64,000 bases of DNA from a virus (IMGVR_UViG_3300001199_000007:633-64632), one strand, 5' to 3'; counted from the first letter of the stretch, positions 1,068-17,524 are shown. Notes: a model not told the origin generated them from the letters alone. A program made the numbers and translations.

Positions 1068-2520
1068 GTCTCGTAATCCTTATGCGAGCGTAGATCCTAT
1101 CGCGGAATTCATGCGCGGCTGGTCCGGCGGCGAGCAGATCCGGCGCGACCTCGAGTCCAGGGGCGATCGCGAACAGGCCCGGCAGGACCGGACCGAGGAC
1201 CGCGAATACACCCGCGGCAGGCGAGCCCGCGAGGTGACCCTGGACCAGCGTGCCGATACGACCTGGAACCAGCAGCAGGCCGAACATGAAGCCAACGCGC
1301 CGCTGCGTGAGGCCCAGCGCAGCGCCGGCATCGCGCTCGCCGAGGACACCGCTCCCAGGATCGAGTACGAGCGCGGCCGCCGTGACCACGAAGTTGCGGG
1401 CCGCATGACCCCAGAACAGCAGCGGCGCGCGAACGAGCTCTCGCTGGAGTCCGGAGAAGGACAGATCCGTCAGCAGGCGGCCACGCTGGAGAACACCAAG
1501 GCAACCACGGCCAACACGCGGGAGACGACGCGCGGATCCAGGCTGCGCAACGACATCACGGCCGAAGTCATCGACCTGGACCGGCAGATCGCGGCGCTCG
1601 ACAGCGGGCAGTTCAAGTCCCTGCAGAATCCGGAGTACCGGCAGACCGCGATGGACCTCTACGAGGACCTCATCCAGGGCAAGGGGCTTCGGGCGCCGGA
1701 CAAGCTCTACGGCTTCATGAACGACACCTTCGCGGACGAGCTCGGTGTCGGAGTCGGCGACAAGGTCGGCGGCACCGATGACGTCATCTCGCAGAAGCGG
1801 ATCTCGGCGCTGTACGAGGATCCCCGGAATCCCGGGAACGTGATGATCGAGCTCGACGTCCGCGCGAAGCGCAAGGACGGCAGCGAGTACGACTACAAGG
1901 CGCCGGTTACAAAGGGACGCAGGAGCGACGAAACCGACGAAATCCAGTCGATCCCCAAGGCCAAGCTGATGGAGCGGCTCCAGGGCGTCGTCGGAGCATC
2001 GCTCGACGTCGAGGCCGGCTTCGACGTCCAGGATCTCCGATCGAAGCTGGTGGCGCGCCGGGATGCCCTGGCGGGATCGGCAGGCCGCGGCGGCCGCGGC
2101 GGGGCCGGCAAGGGCGAGACGGCCTACGAGCGTAACGCGCGCTTCGTCGCGCAGCACAAGTTCGGCGGCGACGTCGAGAAAGCCCTGGACTGGATCAAGG
2201 GCAAGGACTCACGCACGCAGATTGTCGAACTGACAAAGATGCTCTCGGACTTCCAGAAGGACGAGTCGAAGTCGCGTCAGTTGACGCCGGCCCAACTCCT
2301 GCAGCGCGCCGTCGAGATGCAGGCCAGCCTGGCCGGCGGCGATCGCGGCCGCGGCAGCGATGCCGACACCGAACTTGACCCGTCGGCCGCCGGCGAGTCA
2401 GGTCCTGCGGCGCGGGCCGGCGACAGCCGTGCCCCGTCGGGGATGGCGGTCATCGGTCGCACGCCGGATGGCCGCACCGTCTACGAGGACGCCGAGGGCA
2501 ACCAGTTCACCGAGGAGTGA
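1066..2520 (+). CDS. Internal virion (ejection) protein, 484 aa
   Basis: SD GAGGA at 1054-1058. Helical charged N-half. Lies between the glycine-zipper gene and the giant protein; its stop is 1 nt before the giant-gene ATG. Confidence 0.6.
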   Translation: MSRNPYASVDPIAEFMRGWSGGEQIRRDLESRGDREQARQDRTEDREYTRGRRAREVTLDQRADTTWNQQQAEHEANAPLREAQRSAGIALAEDTAPRIEYERGRRDHEVAGRMTPEQQRRANELSLESGEGQIRQQAATLENTKATTANTRETTRGSRLRNDITAEVIDLDRQIAALDSGQFKSLQNPEYRQTAMDLYEDLIQGKGLRAPDKLYGFMNDTFADELGVGVGDKVGGTDDVISQKRISALYEDPRNPGNVMIELDVRAKRKDGSEYDYKAPVTKGRRSDETDEIQSIPKAKLMERLQGVVGASLDVEAGFDVQDLRSKLVARRDALAGSAGRGGRGGAGKGETAYERNARFVAQHKFGGDVEKALDWIKGKDSRTQIVELTKMLSDFQKDESKSRQLTPAQLLQRAVEMQASLAGGDRGRGSDADTELDPSAAGESGPAARAGDSRAPSGMAVIGRTPDGRTVYEDAEGNQFTEE

Positions 2521-2521
2521 C

Positions 2522-5500
2522 ATGGCGCTGAAGCCATACAGCGGGGAGGTCATCAAGGACACCGCGCAGCAGGGGTCGGCGGCGATGAAGCCGTACCGTG
2601 GACCTGTGCTCGAGGACGACGCCGATGCCGCGATCCTGGAAGGCGCAGCGGTCGCCGGCAAGATCGCCACCAACGTGGCCAGGCTCGGGCTCGGTGCCGT
2701 GGATCTCGCGGCCGCGGCAGCGCAGCGTGGCTACCACAACCTCACCCGCAGCGATCTGGACCGCCAGCTCGAGACGAAGCGGTTCGTACCGGCAACGTCG
2801 ATCGAACGACCCCAGGGTGAGCCTGTTGGCGCATTCGACGCCGAGACGGGGCAGCGGGCGGCGCGGCGCGACGCGGCTGAGGTGGCCCGGCCGGCGCAGG
2901 CGCCGCCGGCGCTGTTTTCGGTAACCAACAACACCCCGGCCGGCGAGAAACTCTCCGAGGTCGAGCAGGAACTGGATGAGGCCAAGACGCCGGGGACGCG
3001 CGCCGCGTTCCGCGAGGTCATGGAAGCCGGCCAGGGCGAACCGTCGGAGCTGCGCGCCGCGTACAAGACGGTAAGGGCGATCGCCAGGAATCCGCTGGTG
3101 GCCGGCGAGATGCTGGTGGAGAACGCTGGCCTCTTCGTGCCGACGATGGCGGCGCAGCGCATCGTGGCCTTGCCGACGTACCGCCGCACCTTCACCGCAG
3201 TACTCGACTCGGAGACCAAGAAGCTCGTCGCTTCGAACGTACCCAAGGAGGTCGCCGAGGTCGCGGCGCGCCAGACCGCCACCATCGCCGCGCGCAACGA
3301 GGCGATCCGCGCCGGCGCGCAGGCCGGTCTGTGGACCGAGGTCGGCATGGGCGCCGCCTTCGCCGGGGACCAGGCCTCGCAGACCATCATGGCGATGGAT
3401 CCCAAGGTGCTGGCGAAGTCCCCGGCCTACCAGGAGCTCGTCGAGCAGGGCGTCAGCGAAGAAGACGCCAGGATCCAGCTCGCGAACGAGGCCAGGCTGA
3501 TGGCGGGCCCGATTGCAGGTGCCGCGACCGGGCTGGCATCGAAACTTTCGGGGGCGATCAGCCGCGAGACCGAGATCGTTTCAGGCTTGGGCATGGCGAC
3601 GCGCGGTGTTCTCGGCGGGGTCCTGCGCTTCGGATCGACCGTGGGCAGGGAAACTGCTGAGGAGGCCGCCCAAGAGGCCGGCGAACAAGTCAGCAGCAAC
3701 ATCGGGGCGACGCGCGCGCTGGGCCACGACGTCACCGTGGCGGGCGCTGCCGAGGGTGCCGGCAGCGCCGCAGCGCTCGGAGGGACCCTTGGAGCGGCGG
3801 CGGGGTCGGCGTTCGCTGGCGCTGAAGTGATCCAGCGCGCCATGTCGGAACAAGTTCACACCGCGCAGCCGTCAAGCAGGGTGACGTCGACATCACCAGC
3901 GGGCAAGGATACCGGAGCGGTGTCGCGGCCCATTTCTGACGAAGGTGCCGCCACCATTGGAAGGGGGGCTCATCAGGAAGCCGACATTGGTTCGGCGCTG
4001 GCTCGAATCGAGAGGGACAAGAATGAAGATTCTGAAGAAGCTGCAGGACGCGACAGCAGCGCGCGTACTGTCACCGGAGGAGATGGGAGCAGTCCTGCGC
4101 TATCACCAGGATCAGTTGGAGCAGCAGCGCCAAGTGAGAACCTCTCCGCGGCTGCGGAAGGCACTGGAGCGATTCGACCTATTCCTGATGCCGGCGGCGA
4201 GCAAACTCCTGCACTAGAAGCAGCGGCGAACGAAGCCGCGACATCGCCGAGAAACGATCTGCCGGACCCCTCCGACGCTCAGAAGGAGGCAGGTAATTAC
4301 AGGAAGGGTCACGTCAAGATCCAGGGACTCGACATCAGCATCGAGAATCCCGCTGGGAGCCGGCGACGACCGGAGTGGGGACCTCTCAAGGACCACTACG
4401 GGTACATCCGGGGCACGAAGGGAAGAGACAAGGAGCACATCGACGTCTTCGTCGGTGCGGATACTGATTCGCCGGTCGCCTACGTGGTCGATCAAATCGA
4501 CCCGGAAACGGGGAATTTCGACGAGCACAAGATCATCCTGGGCCAGCGAAGCCTCAAGGATGCGCGCGAGGCCTACCAGCGCAACTACCAGGCTGACTGG
4601 AAGGGACTCGGCAATATCACCGCGGTCCCGGTTCGTGATCTCAGGGAATGGCTGCGGACCCCACAAACCAAGCCGTTCGCCAAGGCGACGCGGCTCAAGG
4701 TGCTCGACGACAAGCGGCTCGCGGATCCCTTGACGCGCCAGCAGCTGTCCGACATGGCCCCGGAAGCGGGCTGGTTCCAGGTCGGCGGCAAGGTGCAGCG
4801 CAGCGGGGACGGCGCCGGCGACTTCGAAGAGGCCATGGGGCGCGGCCACCAGCACGGCGACATCATCGGTCGGACGTCCTGGGTGCCCAATGCGCCGTGG
4901 TTCCCCGAAGTCCAGCAGCGGGCGCCGCTGCCGGGTAACACCAGAGGCACCGCGACGCTCGAAGCGGTCCAGAAGGCGCTGGACGGCCGCCAGATGACGG
5001 CCCCGGAGCGTGCGCACGTGAGGGGCATGCTCGAGCACCTCGACGAGCTCCGGCGCGACTACGAGGCCCACGGCGCGGCCGACGTCGATCCATTCGACCT
5101 CACCGGGGAGATGACCCGCCAGGGGCTCGGCGAGGCCGACGTCAACGATGCCGCTGTGGTCGCGCGCGCGGTAGAGTTGGACGAGGCCGCTGTCGAGCAG
5201 GCGGCGAAGCATTACGAGGCCGATGATCGCGGCTTCATGCAGGCAGTGCGGAGAATCGTCGATGGCCGAGGACAGCAAGAGCAGGGTCAGCAAGCTCGTG
5301 GCGACGGCCAAGGGCGTCAAGGCGCGCAAGGCGAAGAAGGCGGCGCCGGCGTCGCAGGCCAGCCTGGACAAGCTGCGCGAGAAGATGGGGGCCAAGTAGG
5401 TGGAGGCCCGCGTGCTGACGGAGGAACCGGACTTCGATCGGCTCCGGAGTCTGATGCGGGAAGTCGGGATCAAGGGGCCGTACCTGGTGCGGATCGGGTC

Positions 5501-8500
5501 GCAGGTCGAGATCAAGAGTCCGGTACCACGGGACTTCAAGATCGAGCGGTGGCCGCTGCCCCAGCGCTTGAGCTCGAAGCGCAGACCGAAGCGGACCTGA
5601 CCGCGCGCGCGGAGCGCACGCGCGCCGCCGAAGCTCAGGAGAAACAAGACGCTGCGAAGGCCGAGGAGCGCGCACGCGCCGACGTCGAGGCCTCCGACTT
5701 CCGTCTGACCGGCTCGGACCGGCCGGCGGATGTCGCGATGGCAGGCGGGCAGGCAGACCTCATCGGCGCCGCACAGCGGTCGCCAGATCGTGCCGCGATC
5801 GCCGAAGGCGTCAAGCCGATGGTGCAGCGCGAGCAGGCGGCGGCGAGTCGATTCATCGATGCCGCCTCCGAGCAATTCGGAATCACCGCCGAAGAGGCGC
5901 GTCGCGCCATGGATCATCTGGTGAAGACCAAGATGGTCTCCCTGGGCGCCGTCGATGGGCAGTTCAAGCTCAAGGACGGTCGCGTCTGGAACAAGGAGAT
6001 CCTTCGGCGCGCCGCTGATTTGGCACGCGGCCAGACCGACCCGCTGGCGCCCCCTTCATCCGGTTCAGTGAACGAGAAGCCGGCCGCGCCACGTGCCTCG
6101 GACCGTTTCAACGTTCGACCTGCGGCGCAAGAAGGGTGGATGGTGGTAGAGGACCCGCGCGGCGATGGCACCGGCCAGGCCCTCGCACGTTTCAGATTGC
6201 GCCCCGACGGTGGTGCCGGGAAGATCCAGCACTACTTCGAGTCTCCAAGCACGCGTGGACCCGTCGAGGAAGCTGTCGATCGATGGAACCGCGAGCGGAC
6301 GCCCAAGGAGCTCACCAAGGAGGCGCGTGCTGAACTCATCTCGGCTTTCGAGGCCGCTCCGGTAGGGTCCACCATTCGTTACGACGGCAAGGTCTACGAA
6401 CGCACCGGCCCGTCGATTGTGTGGCGACAGCAGGGCGAAGGATTGGGGACGCGAGGTCTGGTCCCATCGTTCTTCGTCGACCACGGCGTCCGGGATCTGC
6501 CGACGCCTCCGACTGCAGCAGCGCCGGCCGAAGCCGCAACAACGACGCCGATCGCTGCAACCGAGCAACCGGAAGCTGCAACCGCCGGCGCCGTGCTGCG
6601 CATCGAGCCCTTCGGCAGCCTCATCGCGGTGCGCGGCGACACCAAGCCGAACAAGGACCGCATCAAGGCGGTCGGTGGCGCCATCTGGAACCGCAAGGCC
6701 GAGGCCTGGACCTTCAAGAAGGAGAAGGAGCCGGCGCTGCGCGCGGCCCTCGCGGATCTCCTCGAGCCTGGCGGCAGCCGTCAATTCATCAACGCGGCCC
6801 CAGCCGGTGCTACGCTCGAATCGTCGGGAGGAAAGGGCGATGGAAAACCCGAGAACGCTGCTGAACCGGAAGGTCTACAAGGCCGAGACGGTGGCCGAGA
6901 TCGAGCGGATGGGCGAACTGGCGAGCCAGATCGCGGACCGCTGGGCGGGCGGCTGGCCGAAGCAGGCCCGGAAGCTCGAAAGCCAGAACCGGCTCCTGCC
7001 GGCGATCAAGGCGCAGATGGAACAGGAACAGCGCGCCCTGGACCTCGAGGCGCAGAACCCGTGGATGGGGGGGATCGAGACGCGCCAGATGGCCGGCGTG
7101 ACGGACGCCCCGCCGGAATAGTCGACGAGCCAGCTGGGGACCACGTCATTTCCGACCAAGACCAGGTCGGCGAGGGCGGCGAGAAGGCCAAGGCCCGCGC
7201 CAACCTTGCCGCGATCGAACTGGTGAAGCGCCTCGAATCCGAGGGGCGCAGCGCCACCCTGGAGGAGCGCCGCGCCCTGGCGCGCTACGTGGGCTGGGGC
7301 GGCCTCAAGGCGATCTTCGATCCCCAGAACAGCAAATGGAGCGATGAACATCTGCGGCTGACGTCGTTGCTCAGCGCCGAGGAATTCGCGGCGGCGCGCG
7401 CCTCGATGCTCGACGCCCATTACACCTCGCTGCCAGTGGTCGACGCGATGTGGGAAGCCGCAGAGGCCATGGGCTTCACCGGCGGCCGCGTCCTCGAACC
7501 GTCGATGGGCGTCGGCAACTTCTTCGGTCGGATGCCGGAAGCGGTGCGCGCGCGCAGCGTGCTCAACGGCGTCGAGCTCGACCGGATCACCGGCCTGATC
7601 GCGAAGCAGCTCTACCAGCGCGCCGACATCGCGGTGGCCACCGGCTTCCAGGACGTCACGTACCCCGAGAACAGTGCGGATCTCGTCATCGGCAACCCGC
7701 CGTTCGGATCCCAGGTGCTCTACGACGCCTCGATGCCGACGGCGACGCGCGGATTCAGCATCCACAACTTCTTCTTCGCCAAAGCAGTGCAGGTCACCAG
7801 GCCCGGCGGCCTCATCACCATGGTGGTGTCGCACAACCTGATGGACCAGGTCGATGCTTCGGCGCGGCAGTGGATCGCGGAGCGTGCGCACCTGCGCGGG
7901 GCGATCCGTTTGCCGTACACCGCGTTCCTGTCCAACGCCGGGACAGAGGTGGTCACAGACGTGCTGTTCCTGCAGAAGGCGATGCCTGGAGAGAAGCCGG
8001 ACACGTCCTGGGTGGAGACGAAGTCGATCACGCTCGAGGCGAAGGACGGCACGCCTCGCGAGTTCAATGTGTCCAGTTACTTCCTGGCAAACCCGCGCAT
8101 GGTGCTGGGACGCCAGGAAGCGACCGGCAAGATGTACGGCCGGCCCGACCAATACAACGTAGCCCCAACCGCAGGGTCCTCGCTCGACGAGCAGTTCCGC
8201 GCAGCCGCGATCGCCGGTCTACCCGAGAAGGTCTACGTCGCGGCGGAGAAGCCGGTCGACGTCGCGGGGATGCGGGACGCCATGGTGCCGGAGACGACCA
8301 AGGTCTACGGCTACTTCATGGACAAGGACGGCGAGACCGTGCTGCAGCGGGTCGCCGACACCTTCGACGGAAAGCCGCAGTCCAAGGTGGTCGAATTCAC
8401 CGACAAGACTTCGCCGCGCCGCGCCGCCGGCATGGTCAAGGTCAAGGAGGCGCTGCGCGAACTGATGCGTGCCGAGATGACCGAAGGCACCTCCAACGCC

Positions 8501-11500
8501 GCCCTGGGCACGCTACGGCAGTCTTTGAACACGATCTACGACGGGTTCGTGAAGCAGTACGGCTACATCAATGCCGCCACGAACCGGCGCGCATTCAGGG
8601 ATGATCCGGATCTGCCGCTGCTGGAATCGCTGGAGCCGAAGTACGACCCCGGGATCTCCAAGGACGTCGCGAAGAAGCGTGACGTTGAAGCCCGGCCGGC
8701 GAGCGCCGGTAAGGCCGACATCTTCAAGAAGCGGGTCCTGCAGCCCACCCTCGAAGTCACCTCGGTTTCTTCGGCCAAGGACGCCCTGATTGCGTCCCTG
8801 AACACGCGCGGCCGCGTCGACCCCGACTACATGGCAGGGATCTACGGCAAGGACTTCGACACGATTGCCGACGAGCTCGGCGATCTCGTGTTCCGTGATC
8901 CCGATGGCGGCACCTGGCAACCCGCGGACGTCTACCTGTCCGGCAACGTCAAGCACAAGCTCAAGGTGGCCAAGGCTGCGGCGGCGAAGTCGCAGGACCT
9001 GCAGCGCAACGTCACCGCGCTGGAAGCGGTTCAGCCGGTCGACGTGCCGGCCATCAAGATCGGTGTCCGTCTCGGCTCGTCCTGGCTGCCGCCATGGGCG
9101 ATTCGGGACTTCGCCAAGAGCATCCTGGGTAATGGCACCAGCGCATACCCGACTTACGTGCGCGCGGTGGGCCGCTGGTCCATCACCATCGAGGGCGCCG
9201 ACCAGGCCGCGAGCATCTCGCGTTGGGGCACAGCGAGAGTCCCCGCCGTCGACGTGATGTCGGCGGTGATGAACAACAAGCAGATCATCGTAAAGGACAA
9301 CGTCGGGACATCTCGCGAGCCCGTCTACGTCGTGAACGAGGCCGAGACCGAGATGGCGCGCGCCCGTGCCGACGACATGGCGGCCAAGTTCCGGGAGTGG
9401 ATCTGGCAGGACGAGAAGCGCCGCACCACGCTGGAGCGGATCTACAATGACGACTACAACACCGATCGCCGCAGGACCTACGACGGCAGCCACCTCACGC
9501 TGCCGGGCTCGTCGCCCGCGATCCAGTTGCGCCCTCACCAGAAGAGCGGGATCTGGCGTGGGGTCATCGAGCGCGCCGAGTTACTCGACCACGTCGTCGG
9601 CGCCGGCAAGACCTTCGAGATGGCCGGCATCGCGATGGAACTGCGCCGGCTCGGCATCGCGCGCAAACCGATGTTCACGGTGCCGAATCACCTGGTCCGG
9701 CAGTGGCGCGACGAGATCTACAAGCTCTACCCGAACGCCAATGTTCTCGCCGCGACCGAAGCCGACTTCGAGAAGGCGAACCGGAAACGCCTCTTCGGGC
9801 GCATCGCCACGGGTGACTGGGATGCCGTGATCGTCGGGCACTCCTCGTTCCAGCGCATCGGGACCCCGAGCGAAATGGAGAAGCAGATCCTCGCCGAGCA
9901 GCTGGAGGAAATCACGCAAGCCATTGAGGCCATAAAGCGTGACCGCGGTGATCGCCACGTCATCCGCGACATGGAGCGCATCAAGCAGAACCTCGCCGCC
10001 AGGATGAAGTTGCTGGCGGAATCCGCCGGCAAGAAGGACGACGTCGTCTCTTTCGATGAGATCGGCGTCGATGCCCTGTTCGTCGACGAAGCGCACCTCT
10101 TCAAGAACCTGTTCTACATGTCGCAGATGCGGGGCATCGCCGGCATGGGTTCCCCAGCGGGGTCCGGTCGCGCGTTCGATCTCTTCGTCAAGACGCAGTA
10201 CCTCAACAAGCGGTACCGCGAGCAGGCCCGCATCGTTTTCGCCACCGGCACGCCGGTCAGCAACTCGCTGGTCGAGATGTATACGATGCAGCGGTACCTC
10301 GCGTGGGACGAGCTCAAGCGCCGCGGCATCAGCACGCTCGATGCCTGGGCCGGCGTCTACGGCGACGTCCAGAACGTGTACGAAGTCCACCCCTCCGGTA
10401 CCGGCTACCGCCTCAAGAGCCGCTTCGCCAAGTTCGTGAACCTGCCGTCGCTGATGGACCTCTACAGGTCGGTCGCCGACGTCGTCACGATGCAGGACCT
10501 CAAGGACCAGGCCAAGGCGGCCGGCGGTCGGTTCCCGGTCCCGAACGTGAAGGGTGGCAAACCCAAGAACGTCGTCGCGGATCGATCTCCGCAACAGATC
10601 CAGTTCTTCGGGGTCCCCGAGTTCAAGCGGGACCGCGACAACGAGATCATGTTCAAGACGCCGTCCGACCTGCGTCCCGAGGAGCGCGTCGACGGCAAGT
10701 GGTGGCTGGTCGGCTCGCCCTACTATCCGGTCAAGGGCGTCGAGAAAGGTACCCAGTACGGCGGTCCTTATGAGAGCGAAGCCGAGGCCAAGGAGCAGGC
10801 CGCAATCCTGATCGAGCAGCCCATCGTGCAATACAACGAGGGCAGCATCCTCTGGAAGTTCGAGCACCTCCGCGAGCTCACCAAGACGACCAAGGGCAAG
10901 GTCAACGCCCTGTCGGTCACCAATGAGGCACGCAAAGCCGGGCTCGACTATCGCCTCATCGACCCCGCGGCACCTGATTTCCCAGGGTCCAAGATCAACC
11001 AGTCCGTCGTGGAGATGAAGCGCATCTACGACGAGTGGAGCGCGGACAAGGGCACTCAACTCGTGTTCTGCGACCTGAGCACGCCGCAGTCCGCGCGTGC
11101 ATCTGCGGCGACCAAGGAGAAGGTCGCCTACGTGCGCGACGGAGACGGCGAGATCAAGCGCGTCAAGGCGACGGTGGCGCCAGTCGATGGTTACCCGGTA
11201 GCGTTTCTGGTGGTGAAGGAAAAGGCTGGCCAGTACCGCGTGCACGACGGTCTCACCGGCGCCGACCTGCGCATCACCGGCACCACCCGTGACGAGGCCG
11301 TGGCCGCACTCAAGTCACGCGTCGGAACTGGCACGGGATGGATCGACGATCTACGCACCAAGTACGGCGAGATCGACGAGGACGCCATCTCCGAATTCAA
11401 GGCGGCGCGCGGCGACGAGAGCGCCGACGACGGTGAGGAGGACAACACGATCACGCTGGGCGACCTGCTTGCCCTTGGCGGGTCCGGGAAGTTCTCGGTG

Positions 11501-14500
11501 TACGACGACGTCCGCACCAAGTTGGTCAAGGCCGGGATCCCGGACAACGAGATCGCCTTCATCCACGACTACGACACCGCAGCCAAGAAGGCGGCGCTGT
11601 TCCGGGATGTCCGCTCCGGTGCAATCCGCATCCTACTGGGGTCGACGGAGAAGATGGGCGCCGGCACCAACGTTCAGGAGCGCGTCGTCGCCCTCCACCA
11701 TCTCGATGCGCCGTGGCGGCCGTCGGACCTCGAGCAGCGCGAAGGCCGCGTCATCCGCCAGGGCAACATGCTCTACGAGCGTGACCCCGACGGCTTCGCA
11801 GTGGAGATCTTCCGCTACGCGACGAAGCAGACCTACGACACCCGGATGTGGCAACTCATCGAGCACAAGGCCGCCGGCATCGAGCAACTGCGCAAGGCGG
11901 ACGCTGACCTGTTCGAGATCGACGACGTCGGCGGAGAGGAATCCAATGCGGCCGACATGAAGGCGGCGGCATCCGGAAATCCGCTGATCCTGGAAGAGAT
12001 CAAGTTGCGCAACGAGGTCAACAGCCTGGAAGCGCAGCAGTACGGTCACACGCAAAGCCTGATCGGCCTGCAGGACCGGATCCGGCGTGCGCGTGCTGCG
12101 CGGCCCGATGCCGAAAAACTGTTGGCGCGACTCAAGCCCTTCATCGAGACCAACAAGCTCTACCCGGCGGATGCCGACTTCTCGATGCGCCTGGCCAGCG
12201 GCAAGGTTATCGACGACAAGGCCAAGGCTGCGGAGCCTTTCATGTCCGCATTCAAGCGGGTCATGGAAGGGAAGGAGGAGGACGTCGTCATCGGTGAGTA
12301 CCGCGGTGTCGGTCTCACGATCGACTCTACCAAGAAGGGGGTCGTCGCTGTCACCGGCAACGTCGGCGATCGCGAACTGCACATCGCGTCCTACACCAAG
12401 GATGACTCGTTCTCGGTGGTTGGTCTCTTCACCCGCGTCGACAACCTCCTCAAGAGTGCCGAGTACCACGTGGCACAAGAGATGGCCGACGTCGAGCGGT
12501 ACGAGGCGGCGATCCCGGGGCTCGAGGAGGAAGCGAAGAAGCCCTTCGCGAAAACCGAGGAACTGCAGGCCAAGCGCGTCGCCCACCGCAACGTCACCAA
12601 TCAACTCGCCAAGGCCGGTGGTTCGATCGCCCTGACGCCTCCGATGCAGCGCGAGCTCAAGCGTGCCATCGCGAAGCGCCTCGGCAAGCCCGTCGAGGAG
12701 CCCCGCAAGGACGTCAGCGCCGCGGCACGGCCGAAGTCAGCGGTGCTGGCGCGCAGCGGACTCAGCGCGCGCGGCGCGCGTGCGATTGCGGAGGAGGCGT
12801 ACGGAGCCGAGGGCATCGGTGCCCTTGTGCGGCACGGGGTCCTCGAGTTCGTCGACGGCGCCGGAGCGCTGCCGGCCTCGCTGCAGGACTTCATCGAGCG
12901 CTTCGAGCTCGACAACCCGGGGCGGGAGGTGGCCGCGGTCACGGACCACGCGCTGGACCGCGTGTTCATTATCGCGGACCGTGCCAGGGCGTCGGACATC
13001 CCGGCCCTGGTCATGCACGAGATCGGAGAGCACTACGGTCTGCCCAAGATGCTGGGGCAGGCCAACTACAACCGGCTCCTCACCGAAGTCAGGGCCATGC
13101 ACGAGAGCGGCGCCAATCCGCTGCTCGACGATGCCTGGCGCTACGTGGAGACGCACTACGGATCGCTGCCGACGGGATCCGAGGAGTTCCTATCCGAAGT
13201 GCTGGCCAGGGTCTCCGAGCGCGCCGAGTTCCGCGCGACGCCGCTGTGGCGTCGCCTGCTGTCGGCGGTGCGCCAGTTCCTGTTCCGCATCGGCTTCACG
13301 CGGGCCTGGAAACTGAAGCCGGAGGATCTCGGGATCATGGTCGCCGCGGCACTGCGCCGGTCGATGCTGCCGGGGTCCGTGGTACCGAAGACCGCGCCGG
13401 ACCGCGCGCCAGCCTTGGCCGCCGCTGGCGCCGCGCCGGTCTACTACTCCCAACTCGAGCAAGTCGTCCGCGACAAGCTGCCCAACAAGGGCGGCGCCAA
13501 GATCTTCAGGTCGATGATCGAGGGGTGGCAGCGCAAGGGCGATTTCAAGAAGGAGGAGATCGAGTGGTCCGGGCTGCTGGAGTGGCTGGACCAGCAGGAC
13601 GGGAAGCTCGAGAAGCCGGCCGTGCTCGAATTCCTGCGCGCCAATGGCGTCCAGGTGGAGGAGGTGGTCAAGCACTCCGGGCCGGCCGTTCCGCAGGCCG
13701 ACATCGACGCGGCCCGGGCGTGGCTCGTCAAGAAGTTCGGCGACCCCAACGAGGACGCCGTCTTCCCGGACTGGCGCTGGGAAGATGCCGCGGCTGGCGA
13801 TCACGACGCCGTCGGAGATCTCGAAGGCCTCGGCATGCCGGACAAGCTGCTGGAGCCGTTCCGGACGGCCGCGCAGGGCGAGCACGGGCCGCAGTACTCG
13901 ACCTACCAACTCGGCGGCGGCGACAACTACCGCGAGATCCTGCTGACGCTTCCACCCAAGGACAGCATCACCCAGGTGCGGGTCAAGACTGCGCCTGGCT
14001 GGGGCGACACCGACGGCGGCGACATGGCGGTGGAGACGCGAGGGGACACTGGGGCTGACTTCCGCAGCGGTCACTGGCGCGAGCCCAATGTGCTCGTGCA
14101 TGTGCGAACCAACGAGCGCACAGACGCAGATGGCAAGCGCGTGCTGTTCATCGAAGAGGTCCAGTCCGACTGGCACCAGCAGGGACGGCGCAAGGGTTAC
14201 AACACGCCCCTGACCGAAGCCGACAAGGCAAGAATCGAGCGCATCGAGAATGACGCGGTGCGCGGACCTATGAGTGCTGCGGATGCCGAGTGGTACAACG
14301 CCAACGTCAACGACCGGCACCTTCTCACTCCGAATGCGCCGTTCAAGACCGTCTGGCCGATGCTGGCCATGCGCCGGATGATCCGGTGGGCCGCTGAGCA
14401 TGGGTTCGACCGCATCGCATGGACGACGGGCGAGCAGCAGGCAGAGCGGTACAACCTCAGCAAGCACATCGACCAAGTCATCCACGCCCGCGAAGATGAC

Positions 14501-17500
14501 GGCACGTACTCGATCGGCATCTATAAGAACGGCCGCGCGGTCCCAGGCTTCGACGAAGCCAAGTCATATAGCGAGGCCGACGTGGCATCAATGCTGGGCA
14601 AGGAACTCGCCCAGAAGATCGTCAACGGCGAGGGCAAGCCGCTTCCAGGTGGCCCTGAAAAGGAGCTCACTGGTCTCGATCTGAAGTTCGGCGGCGAGGG
14701 GATGCGCGCGTTCTACGATCGCGAGCTCGTCAACGAGGTCGGCAGGTACGTCAAGAAGTGGGGCACCAAGGTCGGCGTGACGCGCATCACCACGGATGCC
14801 AGCGCGGAGCGCTTCGCCGGGGCCATGCTCCGCGATGGGAAGCCGCGCCCGGGCGCCGGCCAGGTCGAGGTGCACTCCGTCGACATCACGCCGGAGATGC
14901 GCGCCGGAGCGGCGAGACCGCAGCCCATGTTCGCGGTGAAGCCGACCCAGCAGCAGGCCGCCCTCGGCGGTGGGTCCAAGCAGCAGCAGCTCGAGGACGA
15001 GGCCTGGCGCAAGGCCGGCATGCCCCGCGACAACAGGAGCCTGGCGGACCGCCTCGAGCACTGGGGGCAGGAACGGTGGGCCACGATCAAGGAGGAATTG
15101 ATCGACAACTTCCAGACCGGTGTCTTCGATCGGTTCAAGCCGATCAAGGATGCCGAGGGAGTCATCGACCCCGCGCGGTCCGGCTACCTGTCAGCGCGCC
15201 TCAGCACCGGCGGTAGCTCCGTGCTCTACGCGATGATGCTGTACGGGGCGCCGGAAATGCGCCGCGGGATCATCCAGAAGAAGGAGGGTACCCACGGCCT
15301 CCTCGAGATCCTGTCGCCGGTCGGCAACGATCTGAATCGCTGGGCTGCGTGGATGGTGGGGAAGCGCGCGGACATGCTGGCCGACCAGCACCGCGAGAAC
15401 AATCTGACGCTGGAGGAGATCGCCTACCTCAAGAGCCTCGCCGGGCCCGATGAGGAGAAGTTCGAGAGCGTCGCCCAGAACGTGCGGGCCTTCATGACCG
15501 ACGTACTCGGCATGATGAAGTCCGCTGGTCTGCTGGTGGACGAGCAGGTCGAGGCGTTCAGCAAGGATGCCTACTACCTTCCGTTCTATCGAATCGACGA
15601 GGACGGCGATGCGACGCGCCCCTTCACGAAGCGCGGGCTCAGCCACCAGTCCAGCGGCATCAAGCGCCTCAAGGGCGGCGCCCTGGCGCTGAACGACCCC
15701 ATCGAGAACCTGTTCGCGCACCTCTCCAAGGCGGTCGACGCCTCGATGAAGAACTACGCGCTGGCCAGGGTCATCTCGAACACCACGAAGCACATGACCA
15801 CGGCCAAGGAAGGCGACCGCGCCAAAGCCATCAGGGTGATGTGGGACGGAAAGGAACTCTGGTTCAACGTGGACGAGCCCGCGCTGCTGCGCGCGCTCAC
15901 CGCTGTGGGGGAGAAGCCGCGGGACGGCATCGCCCTCAATATCGGACGCACGATGCGCTGGCTGCTGACGACCGGCGTCACCCTGGATCCAGCGTTCATG
16001 CTGCGCAATTTCATGCGCGACTCGATGCACAGCTGGATGATCGACAAGAACTCCATGCGCTTCGGGATCGATTCACTGAAAGGGGCGGGGACCACGCTGG
16101 ACTCCATCGCGAAGACCGCACGCGGCCGGCCCGAGGACGCGGATCCGGCCCTGGTCTCGATGATGTTCGCCGGCGCCAGTTTTGTCGGTGGCCACGTCTA
16201 CGGCACCGACCCCAAGGCCAATGCCGCAGCGATGCGCAAGGCGCTCCGCCGCAAGGGGCTCAACGACCAGCAGATCAGCAACTACATGGGCACGCTGACG
16301 ACGTCGGCAGCGAAGTTCGCCTCGATGTATACGGCGATCGGGGAGGCCATCGAGAACGCGAACCGCATCGCGACGTTCAAGGCGGCGCAGGACGCCGGTC
16401 AGGGCCTGGCGCATTCGCTCTATGAAGGCAAGGACCTCATGGACTACAGCCTGCGCGGGCAATGGGCCATGGTCCAGGTGATGGCCGATGTGCTGCCGTT
16501 CTTCAACGCCCGACTGCAGGGCCTCTACAAGCTCGGGCGCGAGGCGCGTCGGGATCCCAAGGTGCTCGGGCTCGTCGCGACCCGCATCGCGGCGCGTGGT
16601 GCGCTGATGGCCTTGGCGGCCACCGCCCTGGTTGCCGCGTACAGCGGGCAAGACCGCTACGAAGAGCTCGAGGAGTGGGACAAGGACGCGAACTGGCACT
16701 TCTGGGTCGGTGACACCCATTACAGGGTCCCGAAGCCGTTCGAGCTCGGGATCCTGTTCGGGACGATCCCGGAGCGCATGTATCGCCTGGTGCGCGGCTA
16801 CGATCGGTTCGGAGAGTTCGTGCAGAGCGGGTGGCACAACATCGTGACCACCCTGGCGTTCGACATACGTCCACAAGCCCTTCGGCCGGCGATCGAGATC
16901 TTCAACAATTTCTCTTCTTTCAGACAGCGACCGATCGAGTCCATGGCAGATCTCAAGAAGTTGCCAGAGGATCGATACGGTTCGCACACGTCGCCGACGA
17001 TGGTCGAGATCGGACGGCTCACCGGGGCGTCTCCCAAGAAGCTGGAATACGCATGGGACGGCTACCTCGGGACCGTTGGGAGTTATTGCCTCGGGATCGC
17101 CGACTCCATGGTGCGAGTGGCACGAGGTGACGTCACACCGACAAGGCGCATCGAGGACTATCCGATCATCGGGTCGTTCATTCGTACCGGACCGGCCTGG
17201 AACACCGAGTACCAAACAGAGCTTTACGAGTTGGTGAAGAAGGCCGAACAGGTCAACAATTCGATAAGGGACAAGTCGAAAGTCGGCGATGACGCCGCAG
17301 CAGATCGCATGGTCGCCGACTACGAAGCGCTACTCGCGGTGCGCAAGATGCTGAATCGGTCCGCGGACAAGATCGGGAAGTGGCGCAAGCAGCGCGACGC
17401 CATCTACAACGATCCCGAGATGTCGGCCGAGGACAAGCGCCTTGAGATCGACCAGATCCAGATCAGGATCAACGAGGAAGCTATGGAAGCGGTGCGCGAC

Positions 17501-17524
17501 GCCGAAGCCGAAGGCGCTCAGTAG
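2522..17524 (+). CDS. Giant polyvalent DarB-like ejection/anti-restriction protein (5,000 aa)
   Basis: Start at ATG 2522 (MALKPYSGEV). PPase-like domain HYGYIRGTKGRDKEHIDVFVG (~4210-4690). N6-MTase VLEPSMGVGNF/IGNPPF (~7140-8250). SNF2 helicase LRPHQ, GAGKT, VDEAH, ATGTP, QREGRVIRQGN (~9480-11950). HEIGEHYGL metallopeptidase-like motif (~13010). EEVQSDWHQ domain (~13420-14920). LPD38-like WHFW..RVPKPFELG (~16690-16760). Confidence 0.9.
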   Translation: MALKPYSGEVIKDTAQQGSAAMKPYRGPVLEDDADAAILEGAAVAGKIATNVARLGLGAVDLAAAAAQRGYHNLTRSDLDRQLETKRFVPATSIERPQGEPVGAFDAETGQRAARRDAAEVARPAQAPPALFSVTNNTPAGEKLSEVEQELDEAKTPGTRAAFREVMEAGQGEPSELRAAYKTVRAIARNPLVAGEMLVENAGLFVPTMAAQRIVALPTYRRTFTAVLDSETKKLVASNVPKEVAEVAARQTATIAARNEAIRAGAQAGLWTEVGMGAAFAGDQASQTIMAMDPKVLAKSPAYQELVEQGVSEEDARIQLANEARLMAGPIAGAATGLASKLSGAISRETEIVSGLGMATRGVLGGVLRFGSTVGRETAEEAAQEAGEQVSSNIGATRALGHDVTVAGAAEGAGSAAALGGTLGAAAGSAFAGAEVIQRAMSEQVHTAQPSSRVTSTSPAGKDTGAVSRPISDEGAATIGRGAHQEADIGSALARIERDKNEDSEEAAGRDSSARTVTGGDGSSPALSPGSVGAAAPSENLSAAAEGTGAIRPIPDAGGEQTPALEAAANEAATSPRNDLPDPSDAQKEAGNYRKGHVKIQGLDISIENPAGSRRRPEWGPLKDHYGYIRGTKGRDKEHIDVFVGADTDSPVAYVVDQIDPETGNFDEHKIILGQRSLKDAREAYQRNYQADWKGLGNITAVPVRDLREWLRTPQTKPFAKATRLKVLDDKRLADPLTRQQLSDMAPEAGWFQVGGKVQRSGDGAGDFEEAMGRGHQHGDIIGRTSWVPNAPWFPEVQQRAPLPGNTRGTATLEAVQKALDGRQMTAPERAHVRGMLEHLDELRRDYEAHGAADVDPFDLTGEMTRQGLGEADVNDAAVVARAVELDEAAVEQAAKHYEADDRGFMQAVRRIVDGRGQQEQGQQARGDGQGRQGAQGEEGGAGVAGQPGQAAREDGGQVGGGPRADGGTGLRSAPESDAGSRDQGAVPGADRVAGRDQESGTTGLQDRAVAAAPALELEAQTEADLTARAERTRAAEAQEKQDAAKAEERARADVEASDFRLTGSDRPADVAMAGGQADLIGAAQRSPDRAAIAEGVKPMVQREQAAASRFIDAASEQFGITAEEARRAMDHLVKTKMVSLGAVDGQFKLKDGRVWNKEILRRAADLARGQTDPLAPPSSGSVNEKPAAPRASDRFNVRPAAQEGWMVVEDPRGDGTGQALARFRLRPDGGAGKIQHYFESPSTRGPVEEAVDRWNRERTPKELTKEARAELISAFEAAPVGSTIRYDGKVYERTGPSIVWRQQGEGLGTRGLVPSFFVDHGVRDLPTPPTAAAPAEAATTTPIAATEQPEAATAGAVLRIEPFGSLIAVRGDTKPNKDRIKAVGGAIWNRKAEAWTFKKEKEPALRAALADLLEPGGSRQFINAAPAGATLESSGGKGDGKPENAAEPEGLQGRDGGRDRADGRTGEPDRGPLGGRLAEAGPEARKPEPAPAGDQGADGTGTARPGPRGAEPVDGGDRDAPDGRRDGRPAGIVDEPAGDHVISDQDQVGEGGEKAKARANLAAIELVKRLESEGRSATLEERRALARYVGWGGLKAIFDPQNSKWSDEHLRLTSLLSAEEFAAARASMLDAHYTSLPVVDAMWEAAEAMGFTGGRVLEPSMGVGNFFGRMPEAVRARSVLNGVELDRITGLIAKQLYQRADIAVATGFQDVTYPENSADLVIGNPPFGSQVLYDASMPTATRGFSIHNFFFAKAVQVTRPGGLITMVVSHNLMDQVDASARQWIAERAHLRGAIRLPYTAFLSNAGTEVVTDVLFLQKAMPGEKPDTSWVETKSITLEAKDGTPREFNVSSYFLANPRMVLGRQEATGKMYGRPDQYNVAPTAGSSLDEQFRAAAIAGLPEKVYVAAEKPVDVAGMRDAMVPETTKVYGYFMDKDGETVLQRVADTFDGKPQSKVVEFTDKTSPRRAAGMVKVKEALRELMRAEMTEGTSNAALGTLRQSLNTIYDGFVKQYGYINAATNRRAFRDDPDLPLLESLEPKYDPGISKDVAKKRDVEARPASAGKADIFKKRVLQPTLEVTSVSSAKDALIASLNTRGRVDPDYMAGIYGKDFDTIADELGDLVFRDPDGGTWQPADVYLSGNVKHKLKVAKAAAAKSQDLQRNVTALEAVQPVDVPAIKIGVRLGSSWLPPWAIRDFAKSILGNGTSAYPTYVRAVGRWSITIEGADQAASISRWGTARVPAVDVMSAVMNNKQIIVKDNVGTSREPVYVVNEAETEMARARADDMAAKFREWIWQDEKRRTTLERIYNDDYNTDRRRTYDGSHLTLPGSSPAIQLRPHQKSGIWRGVIERAELLDHVVGAGKTFEMAGIAMELRRLGIARKPMFTVPNHLVRQWRDEIYKLYPNANVLAATEADFEKANRKRLFGRIATGDWDAVIVGHSSFQRIGTPSEMEKQILAEQLEEITQAIEAIKRDRGDRHVIRDMERIKQNLAARMKLLAESAGKKDDVVSFDEIGVDALFVDEAHLFKNLFYMSQMRGIAGMGSPAGSGRAFDLFVKTQYLNKRYREQARIVFATGTPVSNSLVEMYTMQRYLAWDELKRRGISTLDAWAGVYGDVQNVYEVHPSGTGYRLKSRFAKFVNLPSLMDLYRSVADVVTMQDLKDQAKAAGGRFPVPNVKGGKPKNVVADRSPQQIQFFGVPEFKRDRDNEIMFKTPSDLRPEERVDGKWWLVGSPYYPVKGVEKGTQYGGPYESEAEAKEQAAILIEQPIVQYNEGSILWKFEHLRELTKTTKGKVNALSVTNEARKAGLDYRLIDPAAPDFPGSKINQSVVEMKRIYDEWSADKGTQLVFCDLSTPQSARASAATKEKVAYVRDGDGEIKRVKATVAPVDGYPVAFLVVKEKAGQYRVHDGLTGADLRITGTTRDEAVAALKSRVGTGTGWIDDLRTKYGEIDEDAISEFKAARGDESADDGEEDNTITLGDLLALGGSGKFSVYDDVRTKLVKAGIPDNEIAFIHDYDTAAKKAALFRDVRSGAIRILLGSTEKMGAGTNVQERVVALHHLDAPWRPSDLEQREGRVIRQGNMLYERDPDGFAVEIFRYATKQTYDTRMWQLIEHKAAGIEQLRKADADLFEIDDVGGEESNAADMKAAASGNPLILEEIKLRNEVNSLEAQQYGHTQSLIGLQDRIRRARAARPDAEKLLARLKPFIETNKLYPADADFSMRLASGKVIDDKAKAAEPFMSAFKRVMEGKEEDVVIGEYRGVGLTIDSTKKGVVAVTGNVGDRELHIASYTKDDSFSVVGLFTRVDNLLKSAEYHVAQEMADVERYEAAIPGLEEEAKKPFAKTEELQAKRVAHRNVTNQLAKAGGSIALTPPMQRELKRAIAKRLGKPVEEPRKDVSAAARPKSAVLARSGLSARGARAIAEEAYGAEGIGALVRHGVLEFVDGAGALPASLQDFIERFELDNPGREVAAVTDHALDRVFIIADRARASDIPALVMHEIGEHYGLPKMLGQANYNRLLTEVRAMHESGANPLLDDAWRYVETHYGSLPTGSEEFLSEVLARVSERAEFRATPLWRRLLSAVRQFLFRIGFTRAWKLKPEDLGIMVAAALRRSMLPGSVVPKTAPDRAPALAAAGAAPVYYSQLEQVVRDKLPNKGGAKIFRSMIEGWQRKGDFKKEEIEWSGLLEWLDQQDGKLEKPAVLEFLRANGVQVEEVVKHSGPAVPQADIDAARAWLVKKFGDPNEDAVFPDWRWEDAAAGDHDAVGDLEGLGMPDKLLEPFRTAAQGEHGPQYSTYQLGGGDNYREILLTLPPKDSITQVRVKTAPGWGDTDGGDMAVETRGDTGADFRSGHWREPNVLVHVRTNERTDADGKRVLFIEEVQSDWHQQGRRKGYNTPLTEADKARIERIENDAVRGPMSAADAEWYNANVNDRHLLTPNAPFKTVWPMLAMRRMIRWAAEHGFDRIAWTTGEQQAERYNLSKHIDQVIHAREDDGTYSIGIYKNGRAVPGFDEAKSYSEADVASMLGKELAQKIVNGEGKPLPGGPEKELTGLDLKFGGEGMRAFYDRELVNEVGRYVKKWGTKVGVTRITTDASAERFAGAMLRDGKPRPGAGQVEVHSVDITPEMRAGAARPQPMFAVKPTQQQAALGGGSKQQQLEDEAWRKAGMPRDNRSLADRLEHWGQERWATIKEELIDNFQTGVFDRFKPIKDAEGVIDPARSGYLSARLSTGGSSVLYAMMLYGAPEMRRGIIQKKEGTHGLLEILSPVGNDLNRWAAWMVGKRADMLADQHRENNLTLEEIAYLKSLAGPDEEKFESVAQNVRAFMTDVLGMMKSAGLLVDEQVEAFSKDAYYLPFYRIDEDGDATRPFTKRGLSHQSSGIKRLKGGALALNDPIENLFAHLSKAVDASMKNYALARVISNTTKHMTTAKEGDRAKAIRVMWDGKELWFNVDEPALLRALTAVGEKPRDGIALNIGRTMRWLLTTGVTLDPAFMLRNFMRDSMHSWMIDKNSMRFGIDSLKGAGTTLDSIAKTARGRPEDADPALVSMMFAGASFVGGHVYGTDPKANAAAMRKALRRKGLNDQQISNYMGTLTTSAAKFASMYTAIGEAIENANRIATFKAAQDAGQGLAHSLYEGKDLMDYSLRGQWAMVQVMADVLPFFNARLQGLYKLGREARRDPKVLGLVATRIAARGALMALAATALVAAYSGQDRYEELEEWDKDANWHFWVGDTHYRVPKPFELGILFGTIPERMYRLVRGYDRFGEFVQSGWHNIVTTLAFDIRPQALRPAIEIFNNFSSFRQRPIESMADLKKLPEDRYGSHTSPTMVEIGRLTGASPKKLEYAWDGYLGTVGSYCLGIADSMVRVARGDVTPTRRIEDYPIIGSFIRTGPAWNTEYQTELYELVKKAEQVNNSIRDKSKVGDDAAADRMVADYEALLAVRKMLNRSADKIGKWRKQRDAIYNDPEMSAEDKRLEIDQIQIRINEEAMEAVRDAEAEGAQ
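4023..4217 (+). CDS. Nested +1-frame ORF inside the giant gene (64 aa, MKILKKLQDA...)
   Basis: SD GAGGG 6 nt upstream. 48/64 codons end in G/C, while the giant frame switches to A/T-ending codons and low-complexity sequence here. Confidence 0.45.
   Translation: MKILKKLQDATAARVLSPEEMGAVLRYHQDQLEQQRQVRTSPRLRKALERFDLFLMPAASKLLH
5262..5399 (+). CDS. Nested +1-frame Lys/Ala-rich 45-aa ORF (MAEDSKSRVSKLVATAKGVKARKAKKAAPASQASLDKLREKMGAK)
   Basis: SD GGAG 8 nt upstream. All 45 sense codons end in G/C; about half of the giant-frame codons over the same stretch end in A/T. Not in the supplied ORF track (too short). Confidence 0.55.
   Translation: MAEDSKSRVSKLVATAKGVKARKAKKAAPASQASLDKLREKMGAK
5400..5600 (+). 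CDS. Nested +1-frame ORF, 66 aa (MEARVLTEEPDFDRLRSLMREVGIKGPYLVRIG...)
   Basis: GTG start directly follows the TAG of the 5262-5399 ORF. Globular-looking composition; 58/66 codons end in G/C. Confidence 0.5.
   Translation: MEARVLTEEPDFDRLRSLMREVGIKGPYLVRIGSQVEIKSPVPRDFKIERWPLPQRLSSKRRPKRT
6840..7121 (+). CDS. Nested +1-frame ORF, 93 aa, immediately before the DarB MTase module
   Basis: Strong SD GGAGG 8 nt upstream; 86/93 codons end in G/C. Protein-like sequence QIADRWAGGWPKQARKL..LLPAIKAQMEQEQ..ETRQMAG..APP. The giant frame here is a G/R/D/P low-complexity linker. Confidence 0.7.
   Translation: MENPRTLLNRKVYKAETVAEIERMGELASQIADRWAGGWPKQARKLESQNRLLPAIKAQMEQEQRALDLEAQNPWMGGIETRQMAGVTDAPPE

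What the first reader, a model, noticed from the sequence alone, without database searches (positions are those of the whole stretch)
6840..7121. A well-formed gene hidden in the +1 frame just before the DarB methyltransferase module of the giant virion protein
Seen: the 93-aa ORF has a GGAGG SD at ideal spacing and 86/93 G/C-ending codons. Over the same bases the giant protein reads as G/R/D/P-rich low-complexity filler. The nested stop (7121) falls where the conserved DarB N-terminus begins. Inference: the MTase-helicase module was captured together with a small upstream partner gene, and the giant protein reads through it in another frame while the partner is still made. From recall (unverified), the QIADRWAGGWP..LLPAIKAQ.EQE..APP pattern resembles small stand-alone proteins next to MTase/SNF2 genes in mobile elements, so this may be an overlooked DarB cofactor or packaging chaperone (conceptual parallel: P1 Ulx).
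Basis: partly seen in the sequence, partly recalled or inferred. Interest (0 to 1): 0.8.

Follow-up and report, generated by a model that had tools for sequence, protein, structure and literature searches.

The report
Small gene nested inside giant phage gene
A real, conserved 93-codon gene sits in a second reading frame inside the floppy linker of this phage's 5,054-codon anti-restriction (DarB-like) gene. The same two-frame layout recurs in other phages and in plasmids, where annotation misses it or cuts the big gene short.

Summary
ORF 6840-7121 (+1 to the giant ORF 2360-17524) has GGAGG 8 nt before its ATG and 86/93 G/C-ending codons, against 41/93 in the giant frame.

It belongs to an unnamed family of about 90-residue, mostly acidic, five-helix proteins: 118 representative clusters, AF2 pLDDT 93, no Pfam, NCBIfam or PHROG hit, and no PDB fold match.

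Selection acts on the nested frame (dN/dS 0.25-0.38). The giant frame over the same bases evolves freely (1.2-2.5) and is predicted disordered.

In nine independent loci the small ORF lies +1 inside an open MTase-helicase ORF. These are four related phage or prophage loci, cultured Pseudomonas phage 8P, two plasmid/ICE contigs and two complete plasmids. The big ORF continues upstream into a folded N-terminal domain that has no stop codon of its own.

The protein is not P1 Ulx. It is probably a remote TnpV-like protein. Clearer TnpV-like ORFs occupy the same spot in PEp14, Itty13 and other cultured phages.

A role as DarB partner has only weak support (complex score 0.41, controls 0.00, truncated construct).

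This scan found the same kind of nesting before on other DNA. I found no paper describing it.

The parts
2360..17524 (+). Giant polyvalent ORF (5,054 codons) carrying InPase, N6-MTase (Eco57I type), ResIII/SNF2/Helicase_C and LPD38 domains
   Evidence: ORF list and translation; Pfam domains
6596..6766 (+). Small folded domain of the giant protein (aa 1413-1469, IEPFG...WTF) just upstream of the linker. It is in the giant frame and has no stop codon of its own.
   Evidence: AF2 pLDDT 80-88. Conserved in L001, L008 and L010 in the same frame as the MTase. No Pfam hit.
6767..7174 (+). Predicted disordered linker of the giant protein (aa 1470-1605). Its middle part is the out-of-frame reading of the nested gene.
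   Evidence: AF2 pLDDT 32-41 with no secondary structure. 91% G/R/D/P/A/E/S/T/Q. dN/dS 1.2-2.5 in this frame. Flanking indels among relatives are multiples of three.
6827..6831 (+). Shine-Dalgarno-like GGAGG, 8 nt before the nested ATG
   Evidence: Sequence. A purine-rich SD-like run precedes the ATG in all nine nested loci. The start region is less structured than its flanks in all nine (mean z +2.0).
6840..7121 (+). Nested gene, +1 frame, 93 codons plus TAG. The product is an acidic five-helix protein with invariant R34, W35 and near-invariant G38, W39, E63, E80.
7118..7380 (+). Start of the conserved DarB-type N-terminus in the giant frame (IVDEPAGDHVI...GEGGEK...AAIELVKRLE...YVGWGG). No conserved start codon of its own.
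   Evidence: Alignments of four loci; helical from aa 1605 in AF2; DNA matches to DarB-like genes
7382..8005 (+). N6-adenine methyltransferase domain (aa 1675-1882)
   Evidence: Pfam N6_Mtase and Eco57I
9518..9763 (+). Predicted docking surface for the small protein on the first helicase lobe (aa 2387-2468). Weak support only.
   Evidence: complex prediction interface. The construct ended at aa 2480, inside the helicase domain.
16652..17170 (+). LPD38 domain (aa 4765-4937), hallmark of large polyvalent proteins
   Evidence: Pfam PF18857, E 7e-40

Best explanation
Bases 6840-7121 are read in two frames.

Nested frame. Ribosomes starting at an internal SD+ATG, in a weakly structured pocket of the giant gene's own mRNA, make a 93-residue acidic five-helix protein. 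It belongs to a mobile-element family that is probably a remote branch of TnpV-like proteins.

Giant frame. Ribosomes that started at the giant gene's start read the same bases one position earlier. They produce a featureless disordered spacer that ties the N-terminal modules to the DarB-type methylase-helicase.

Origin (inferred). The small gene is the older reading and the spacer is the overprinted one. The MTase-helicase gene has carried the small gene inside its linker for a long time, through exchanges of N-terminal domains between phages and plasmids.

Function (inferred, weakest step). The small protein works with the methylase-helicase by binding it through its invariant R-W-x2-G-W surface, as a chaperone, regulator or packaging/export adaptor. 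Nesting guarantees co-inheritance and co-expression.
For: Shown by tools:

1. Coding signal. GC3 is 86/93 in the nested frame and 41/93 in the giant frame. This is one of only two such off-frame clusters in 15 kb.

2. Family. Six close clusters of 89-94 aa and 118 representative clusters by profile, mostly about 90-100 aa. AF2 gives pLDDT 93.4 and pTM 0.82.

3. Selection. dN/dS is 0.25-0.38 in the nested frame, 1.2-2.5 in the giant frame and 0.9-1.4 in the third frame. The DarB N-terminus downstream gives 0.07-0.31. An independent plasmid pair repeats the pattern, 0.35 against 1.27.

4. Recurrence. In nine loci the small ORF is +1 inside an open MTase-helicase ORF that continues upstream into a conserved N-terminal domain with no stop. 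The loci are the window, L001, L008, L010, phage 8P, L021, L022, and the Acidovorax and Cupriavidus plasmids; small-protein identity falls to about 30%. Flank indels are multiples of three.

5. Initiation signals. SD-like runs precede the ATG in all nine loci. The start region is unusually unstructured in all nine. No sigma-70 promoter lies nearby.

6. Linker. AF2 predicts disorder for aa 1470-1605 between two folded parts.

7. Partner role. Complex score 0.41 against a best control of 0.00. This mark was reached by 58 of 80 solved complexes and 2 of 110 mismatches, but a pass at 0.60 or under is weak. The interface uses the family's invariant residues 33-39 and 74-84.

8. Charge. Median pI 5.6, with 36 of 50 members acidic.

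9. Same spot, clearer relatives. TnpV-like +1 ORFs occupy this position in PEp14, Itty13 and nine other cultured phages.
Against: No expression data exist: no ribosome profiling, no peptides and no transcript map for either frame.

The giant frame shows no sequence constraint here, which would also fit a stretch that is not translated. Its freedom from stops inside the small ORF is expected by composition.

The complex prediction is only weak support. The helicase lobe was cut at aa 2480, so the docking surface may be an artefact of truncation.

About a third of the family's contexts lack any DarB-type gene. These sit beside integrase-like genes, a transposase, a Toprim-DUF3987 primase or a TPR-trypsin gene, so the protein can act without DarB.

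The TnpV link rests on weak scores: no Pfam hit, hhalign probability 33%, TM 0.55.
Confidence: 0.6

Rival explanations
1. The small gene is real and nested, but functionally unrelated to the methylase-helicase. It would be a general mobile-element protein (for example a recombination or regulatory accessory, as postulated for TnpV) that became trapped when neighbouring genes fused, and it persists because it cannot be lost without breaking the giant ORF.
For: Family members occur without any DarB-type gene: directly after an integrase-like gene (L002), near an integrase and a TPR-trypsin gene (L013, L023), beside a transposase and cpYpsA (L016), and after Toprim-DUF3987 (L006). TnpV was postulated to act in excision (PMC3158075). 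The complex test is only weak.
Against: The same nesting point, just before the MTase N-terminus and always +1, is kept in phages and plasmids down to about 30% identity, and also by the TnpV-like clade. The nested frame stays under purifying selection there. Most members are acidic, unlike typical Xis-type DNA binders. The predicted interface uses the invariant motif.
Confidence: 0.27
2. These are three separate genes and the 5,054-codon ORF is not translated as one chain. The giant frame would merely happen to be open across the small gene, and the DarB module would start downstream of 7121, as gene callers assume.
For: Prodigal-type and PGAP calls do this in relatives: MTase starts at L001 10567, L021 7435, L022 1714 and L027 4618. 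The giant frame has dN/dS above 1 over the overlap. The -1 frame of this family is usually stop-free anyway.
Against: The upstream folded domain has no stop codon in any of nine loci, so its translation must run on into the MTase. The frame relation is identical in at least five deep lineages; by chance this is about (1/3)^4. Flank indels preserve the frame. The conserved frame-0 peptide AGIVDEPAGD precedes any possible start, and no in-frame start codon is conserved. In phage 8P the depositors annotate one 5,145-aa CDS.
Confidence: 0.07
3. Programmed frameshifting: the 93-codon stretch is not started independently. It would be joined to the upstream part of the giant protein by a +1 shift, giving a shorter product that ends at 7121.
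For: The +1 frame is open upstream to 6417 in this window. Phage structural genes do use frameshifting (own knowledge).
Against: In L021, L022 and L026-L028 the nested frame is closed by a stop 9-45 nt before the ATG. The ATG, the SD and an unstructured start are conserved. Stand-alone homologues begin at the same methionine. I saw no shared slippery motif in the four aligned sequences.
Confidence: 0.04
4. Chance open frame in GC-rich DNA; not a gene.
For: Long off-frame ORFs are common at 66% GC. There are 57 off-frame segments of at least 60 codons in this gene.
Against: Homologues, purifying selection, a confident fold and a GC3 outlier.
Confidence: 0.02

Closest known systems
TnpV (Pfam PF14198) of Tn4451/Tn4453, and the TnpV-like +1 ORFs nested in the DarB-like genes of PEp14, Itty13, SopranoGao, LASTA, Pavtok, VvAW1, PBC5, Atu_ph08, POI1126 and Mwe-JY07
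   Same: Small acidic helical mobile-element protein. In those phages it is nested +1 at exactly the same spot, ending just before the DarB N-terminus, and is not annotated. They share a (R/H)W...P...L..G.L..L...E pattern and a C-terminal PP. The first named family in the Atlas shape search is TnpV (TM 0.55).
   Different: No member of this family reaches any Pfam TnpV score. Profile-profile probability is only 33%. The invariant RW-x2-GW motif is specific to this family. TnpV's own function is only postulated.
Embedded out-of-frame phage genes: Rz1 inside Rz (lambda; also in Bcep22-like phages, PMC9144972), and phiX174 B in A and E in D (own knowledge)
   Same: A complete gene with its own start, wholly inside a larger same-strand gene in the +1 frame.
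   Different: Here the host gene is a 15-kb polyvalent anti-restriction gene and the overlapped part is an unconstrained disordered linker. The nested reading appears to be the older one. The arrangement spans phages and conjugative plasmids.
P1 DarB with its accessory protein Ulx
   Same: A DarB-type MTase-helicase that depends on small accessory proteins encoded next to it (PMC12810830).
   Different: Ulx has 146 aa, lies downstream of darB as a separate gene, and shows no similarity to this family (hhalign probability 0.6%).
Large polyvalent proteins of phages and conjugative elements (LPD families; Iyer et al. 2017, own knowledge)
   Same: The host gene has the typical build, with InPase, MTase, SNF2-type helicase and LPD38 joined by low-complexity linkers.
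   Different: In the searchable library I found no paper describing a second gene inside these linkers. The JC1 paper on a Bcep22-like DarB gene does not mention one.

Membership tests
TnpV (Pfam PF14198) | Sequence scores at or above the Pfam gathering threshold (27 bits) | tested here: not met
   No hit for P0001 at E<=0.01. None of the 50 family members hits TnpV at E<=1. No six-frame hit in the whole virus record at E<=10.
TnpV (Pfam PF14198) | Shared fold with TnpV models | tested here: inconclusive
   Atlas shape search gives a TnpV cluster at TM 0.55, 66 residues, rmsd 3.3. It is the first named family after the protein's own clusters. The AFDB TnpV row is weak, E 6.7.
TnpV-like nested ORFs of PEp14/Itty13-type phages | Profile-level sequence similarity | tested here: inconclusive
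   Family HMM against those ORFs: E 1e-3 and 7e-3 in a small set. hhalign of A2 against the 8-sequence profile: probability 33%, P 4.6e-4 over 53 columns. Those ORFs hit TnpV at E 5e-4 and 7e-3, below the cut-off.
TnpV-like nested ORFs of PEp14/Itty13-type phages | Same genomic position: +1 frame, inside the linker, ending just before the DarB N-terminus | tested here: met
Embedded out-of-frame genes (Rz1-in-Rz type) | Whole ORF inside a larger same-strand ORF in another frame | tested here: met
   6840-7121 lies inside 2360-17524, +1 frame. The same holds in eight other loci.
Embedded out-of-frame genes (Rz1-in-Rz type) | Own translation start signals | tested here: met
   GGAGG 8 nt before the ATG. 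SD-like runs and a low-structure start region in all nine loci. These are sequence signals only.
Embedded out-of-frame genes (Rz1-in-Rz type) | Purifying selection on the nested frame | tested here: met
   dN/dS 0.25-0.38; 0.35 in the plasmid pair
Embedded out-of-frame genes (Rz1-in-Rz type) | Both products actually made | not testable with these tools
   No ribosome profiling or proteomics is available for this virus.
P1 Ulx | Sequence homology and position downstream of darB | tested here: not met
   hhalign probability 0.6%. P1 ulx is a separate 146-aa gene downstream of darB.
DarB-like / large polyvalent protein (the host gene) | N6-MTase plus SF2 helicase in one chain, with an LPD domain | tested here: met
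   Eco57I/N6_Mtase, ResIII, SNF2-rel, Helicase_C and LPD38. DNA matches to annotated DarB-like genes.
DarB-like / large polyvalent protein (the host gene) | Packaged in virions and protective against restriction | not testable with these tools
   Known for P1 DarB and, for packaging, JC1 gp69. Not measurable here.

The most novel reading that the evidence does not exclude
The nested protein is an obligatory partner of DarB-type methylase-helicases. It would dock on the first helicase lobe through its RW-x2-GW surface and hold the enzyme in an inactive or transfer-competent state until it is packaged or exported. Together with the TnpV-like clade, it would mark a universal, unannotated two-frame operon-in-a-gene shared by phage and plasmid anti-restriction proteins.
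Probability: 0.3. Interest if true: 0.8.

Novelty: new variant of a known kind. Interest (0 to 1): 0.66.

Why it matters
Giant DarB-like polyvalent proteins are widespread anti-restriction weapons of phages and conjugative elements, and how they are controlled, packaged or exported is poorly understood. A conserved hidden gene in their linker is a concrete candidate accessory factor. It can be tested with single-base changes that are silent in the other frame.

It is also a clean bacterial example of overprinting in which the younger reading is a disordered spacer.

There is a recurring annotation error as well. Pipelines either swallow the small gene (phage 8P, PEp14, Itty13 and others), or call it and then truncate the methylase gene, leaving its N-terminal domain unannotated (pACP4.3 and the Cupriavidus plasmid).

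Tried and rejected
- Pfam, NCBIfam and PHROGs give no family for the small protein.
- PDB Foldseek has nothing below E 7. VIA-align wide gives a best Z of 5.3, within helical noise. AFDB returns only unnamed relatives.
- IMG/VR pattern scan with the family alignment found no confirmed relative.
- P1 Ulx is rejected as a homologue.
- A TnpV HMM search of 301 genomes, meant to fetch TnpV sequences, found none. The family profile found only the centre genome among 401.
- tblastn with two further family members added no new phage or plasmid records.
- "The giant frame is open across the ORF" is rejected as evidence, because non-nested homologues are open in that frame too.
I re-sent only the window's own segment with the family alignment.
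- The 66-aa ORF at 5400-5600 has no homologue and no Pfam hit.
- No paper on phage 8P was found.
- The N-terminal domains (IEPFG...WTF and MQLDLFG...) have no Pfam family.

Full report
**1. The observation.**
The window is most of a 67-kb IMG/VR virus record with 66% G+C. The giant ORF 2360-17524 encodes 5,054 residues with InPase, Eco57I/N6 methylase, ResIII/SNF2/Helicase_C and LPD38 domains. This is a DarB-like large polyvalent protein.

The reported ORF runs from ATG 6840 to TAG 7121, in the +1 frame. GGAGG at 6827-6831 lies 8 nt before the ATG. It has 86 of 93 G/C-ending codons, against 41 of 93 in the giant frame over the same bases. Among 9,923 off-frame 93-codon windows in the gene (mean 53, sd 12), only two clusters reach 80: this one and 5028-5532.

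**2. It is a real protein family.**
- The peptide finds six clusters of 89-94 residues at 45-73% identity.
- A profile finds 118 representative clusters, 48 of them at E<=1e-10, mostly about 90-100 residues.
- The alignment has invariant R34 and W35 and near-invariant G38, W39, E63 and E80. The motif is IADRWxxGWP...LE..G.LL, and the proteins end in PP.
- AlphaFold2 with 50 sequences gives a five-helix domain at pLDDT 93.4 and pTM 0.82.
- There is no Pfam, NCBIfam or PHROG match and no convincing PDB fold. AFDB and the Atlas return only unnamed relatives.
- Members are mostly acidic, with median pI 5.6.
- The family is rare in chromosomes: 1 of 401 sampled genomes.

**3. Which frame is under selection.**
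The window and three related loci align without a single indel over the 279 nt. The loci are L001 (an NCBI assembly), L008 (ENA) and L010 (NPIF01000290.1).

| Frame or region | dN/dS |
|---|---|
| Nested frame | 0.25-0.38 |
| Giant frame, same bases | 1.2-2.5 |
| Third frame | 0.9-1.4 |
| DarB N-terminus just downstream | 0.07-0.31 |

Variable sites by nested codon position are 32, 29 and 54. An independent plasmid pair (L027 and L028) repeats the pattern at 0.35 against 1.27. Selection therefore sees the small protein. The giant protein's reading of these bases is free to change.

**4. Is the giant frame really read through?**
Freedom from stops inside the small ORF proves nothing. The same -1 frame is also open in homologues that are not inside any large gene. 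The argument rests on the flanks.

In nine loci the small ORF is +1 to an MTase-helicase ORF that continues upstream, without any stop, into a conserved folded domain. The nine are the window, L001, L008/L009, L010, cultured Pseudomonas phage 8P, two plasmid/ICE contigs (L021, L022), Acidovorax plasmid pACP4.3 and a Cupriavidus plasmid. The upstream domain is IEPFG...WTF in the phage group and MQLDLFG... in the plasmids.

- A separate upstream gene would need a stop codon, and none exists.
- The frame relation is the same in at least five deep lineages, with small-protein identity down to about 30%.
- Indels in the flanks are multiples of three.
- The frame-0 peptide AGIVDEPAGD spans the nested stop and is kept by synonymous changes that even move the nested stop by one codon.
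- No in-frame start codon is conserved before the DarB N-terminus.
- AF2 of giant residues 1395-1720 shows a folded domain (pLDDT 80-88), then 136 residues at pLDDT 32-41 with no secondary structure, then the helical DarB N-terminus. The nested gene lies wholly in the disordered part.

Independent complete assemblies rule out a sequencing artefact.

**5. How the small gene is expressed (inferred).**
All nine loci have a purine-rich SD-like run 5-12 nt before the ATG. In all nine, the 50 nt around the start fold less stably than the flanks (z +1.2 to +3.2, mean +2.0). No sigma-70-like promoter lies in 6300-7400. Internal initiation on the giant gene's mRNA is therefore the simplest reading. In five loci a stop closes the nested frame just before the ATG, which argues against a frameshift fusion.

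**6. What it does.**
Nine of roughly fifteen distinct contexts are this nesting. The others are:
- beside an integrase-like gene (L002);
- near an integrase and convergent with a TPR-trypsin gene (L013, L023);
- near a transposase and cpYpsA (L016);
- after Toprim-DUF3987 (L006);
- convergent with an LPD38 polyvalent gene (L007, L018).

A complex prediction paired the small protein with giant residues 1587-2480. It gave a median score of 0.41 against 0.00 for the best of three controls, which the tool rates as weak support. That mark was reached by 58 of 80 solved complexes and 2 of 110 mismatches, but passes at 0.60 or under are more often wrong than right unless the guess was likely beforehand. 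The three runs agree on 80-90% of contacts. The interface uses the invariant residues 33-39 and 74-84 and sits on the first helicase lobe, residues 2387-2468. That lobe was truncated at 2480, so the surface may be artificial.

I therefore hold the partner role (chaperone, regulator or adaptor) at roughly 45%. A DarB-independent mobile-element role stands at roughly 27%.

**7. Comparison with known things.**
- P1 Ulx is not a relative. It has 146 aa, is encoded downstream of darB, and hhalign probability is 0.6%.
- Earlier notes of this scan report TnpV-like genes nested in DarB-like giants on other DNA. Following that lead, I found no Pfam TnpV hit for this family.
- The first named family in the Atlas shape search is TnpV (TM 0.55).
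- PEp14, Itty13 and nine other cultured phages carry an unannotated +1 ORF (MNLNNW..HWKE..P...) at exactly this spot. Those ORFs hit TnpV weakly, at E 5e-4 and 7e-3.
- They match this family's profile at hhalign probability 33%, P 4.6e-4.

I read this family as a probable remote TnpV-like branch, at about 60%. It is not a demonstrated member.

TnpV's function is itself only postulated. I found no paper describing nested genes in DarB-like or polyvalent proteins.

**8. Verdict.**
The feature is a real nested gene. The function is still open, but it can be tested with single-base changes that are silent in the other frame.

Noticed in passing
window 5262-5600: A second stretch where the coding signal moves to the +1 frame (GC3 0.88-0.91 against 0.48). 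It holds a 45-codon Lys/Ala-rich ORF (5262-5399), followed at once by a GTG-started 66-codon ORF (5400-5600). The first has a 40%-identical counterpart ending in the same GAK-stop in L010 (about 4350-4526). The second has no homologue and no Pfam hit.
   Followed up: partly
L027 3592-4618 (NZ_CP021369.1) and L028 1323-2241 (NZ_CP026547.1): RefSeq annotation calls the small gene 'hypothetical protein' and starts the 'N-6 DNA methylase' downstream of it. The conserved N-terminal domain (MQLDLFG...), which is in frame with the methylase and has no stop, is left unannotated.
   Followed up: partly
L026 (MT152150.1 31545-31814), L030 1117-1431 (PEp14), L031 1118-1438 (Itty13), L033-L038: Cultured phages carry nested +1 ORFs inside CDSs annotated as structural protein, DarB-like antirestriction or DNA methylase. 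None of the nested ORFs is annotated.
   Followed up: partly
L001 7264-8000: In the related prophage, the gene called as InPase (7264-8520) has its highest GC3 in the +1 frame over about 7300-8000 (0.77-0.83 against 0.45-0.68).
   Followed up: no
L007 1366-1644 and L018 1426-1599: A family member sits as a free gene convergent with, and 20 nt from, the end of a 1,989-codon polyvalent protein gene (LPD38-like C-terminus, JAB/RadC-like motif) on the other strand.
   Followed up: no
L019 255-404 and L020 749-868: Truncated copies of the family (49 and 39 codons, cut after the RWxxGWP motif) in about 51% G+C contigs. They are possibly decaying genes.
   Followed up: no
L002 1103-9965: A stand-alone family member ends an integrative island that also carries an N6_N4 methylase, a 1,026-aa ResIII helicase, AlpA, HTH_17 and two integrase-like genes. 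A methylase and a helicase are present, but as separate genes that are not adjacent to the small gene.
   Followed up: no
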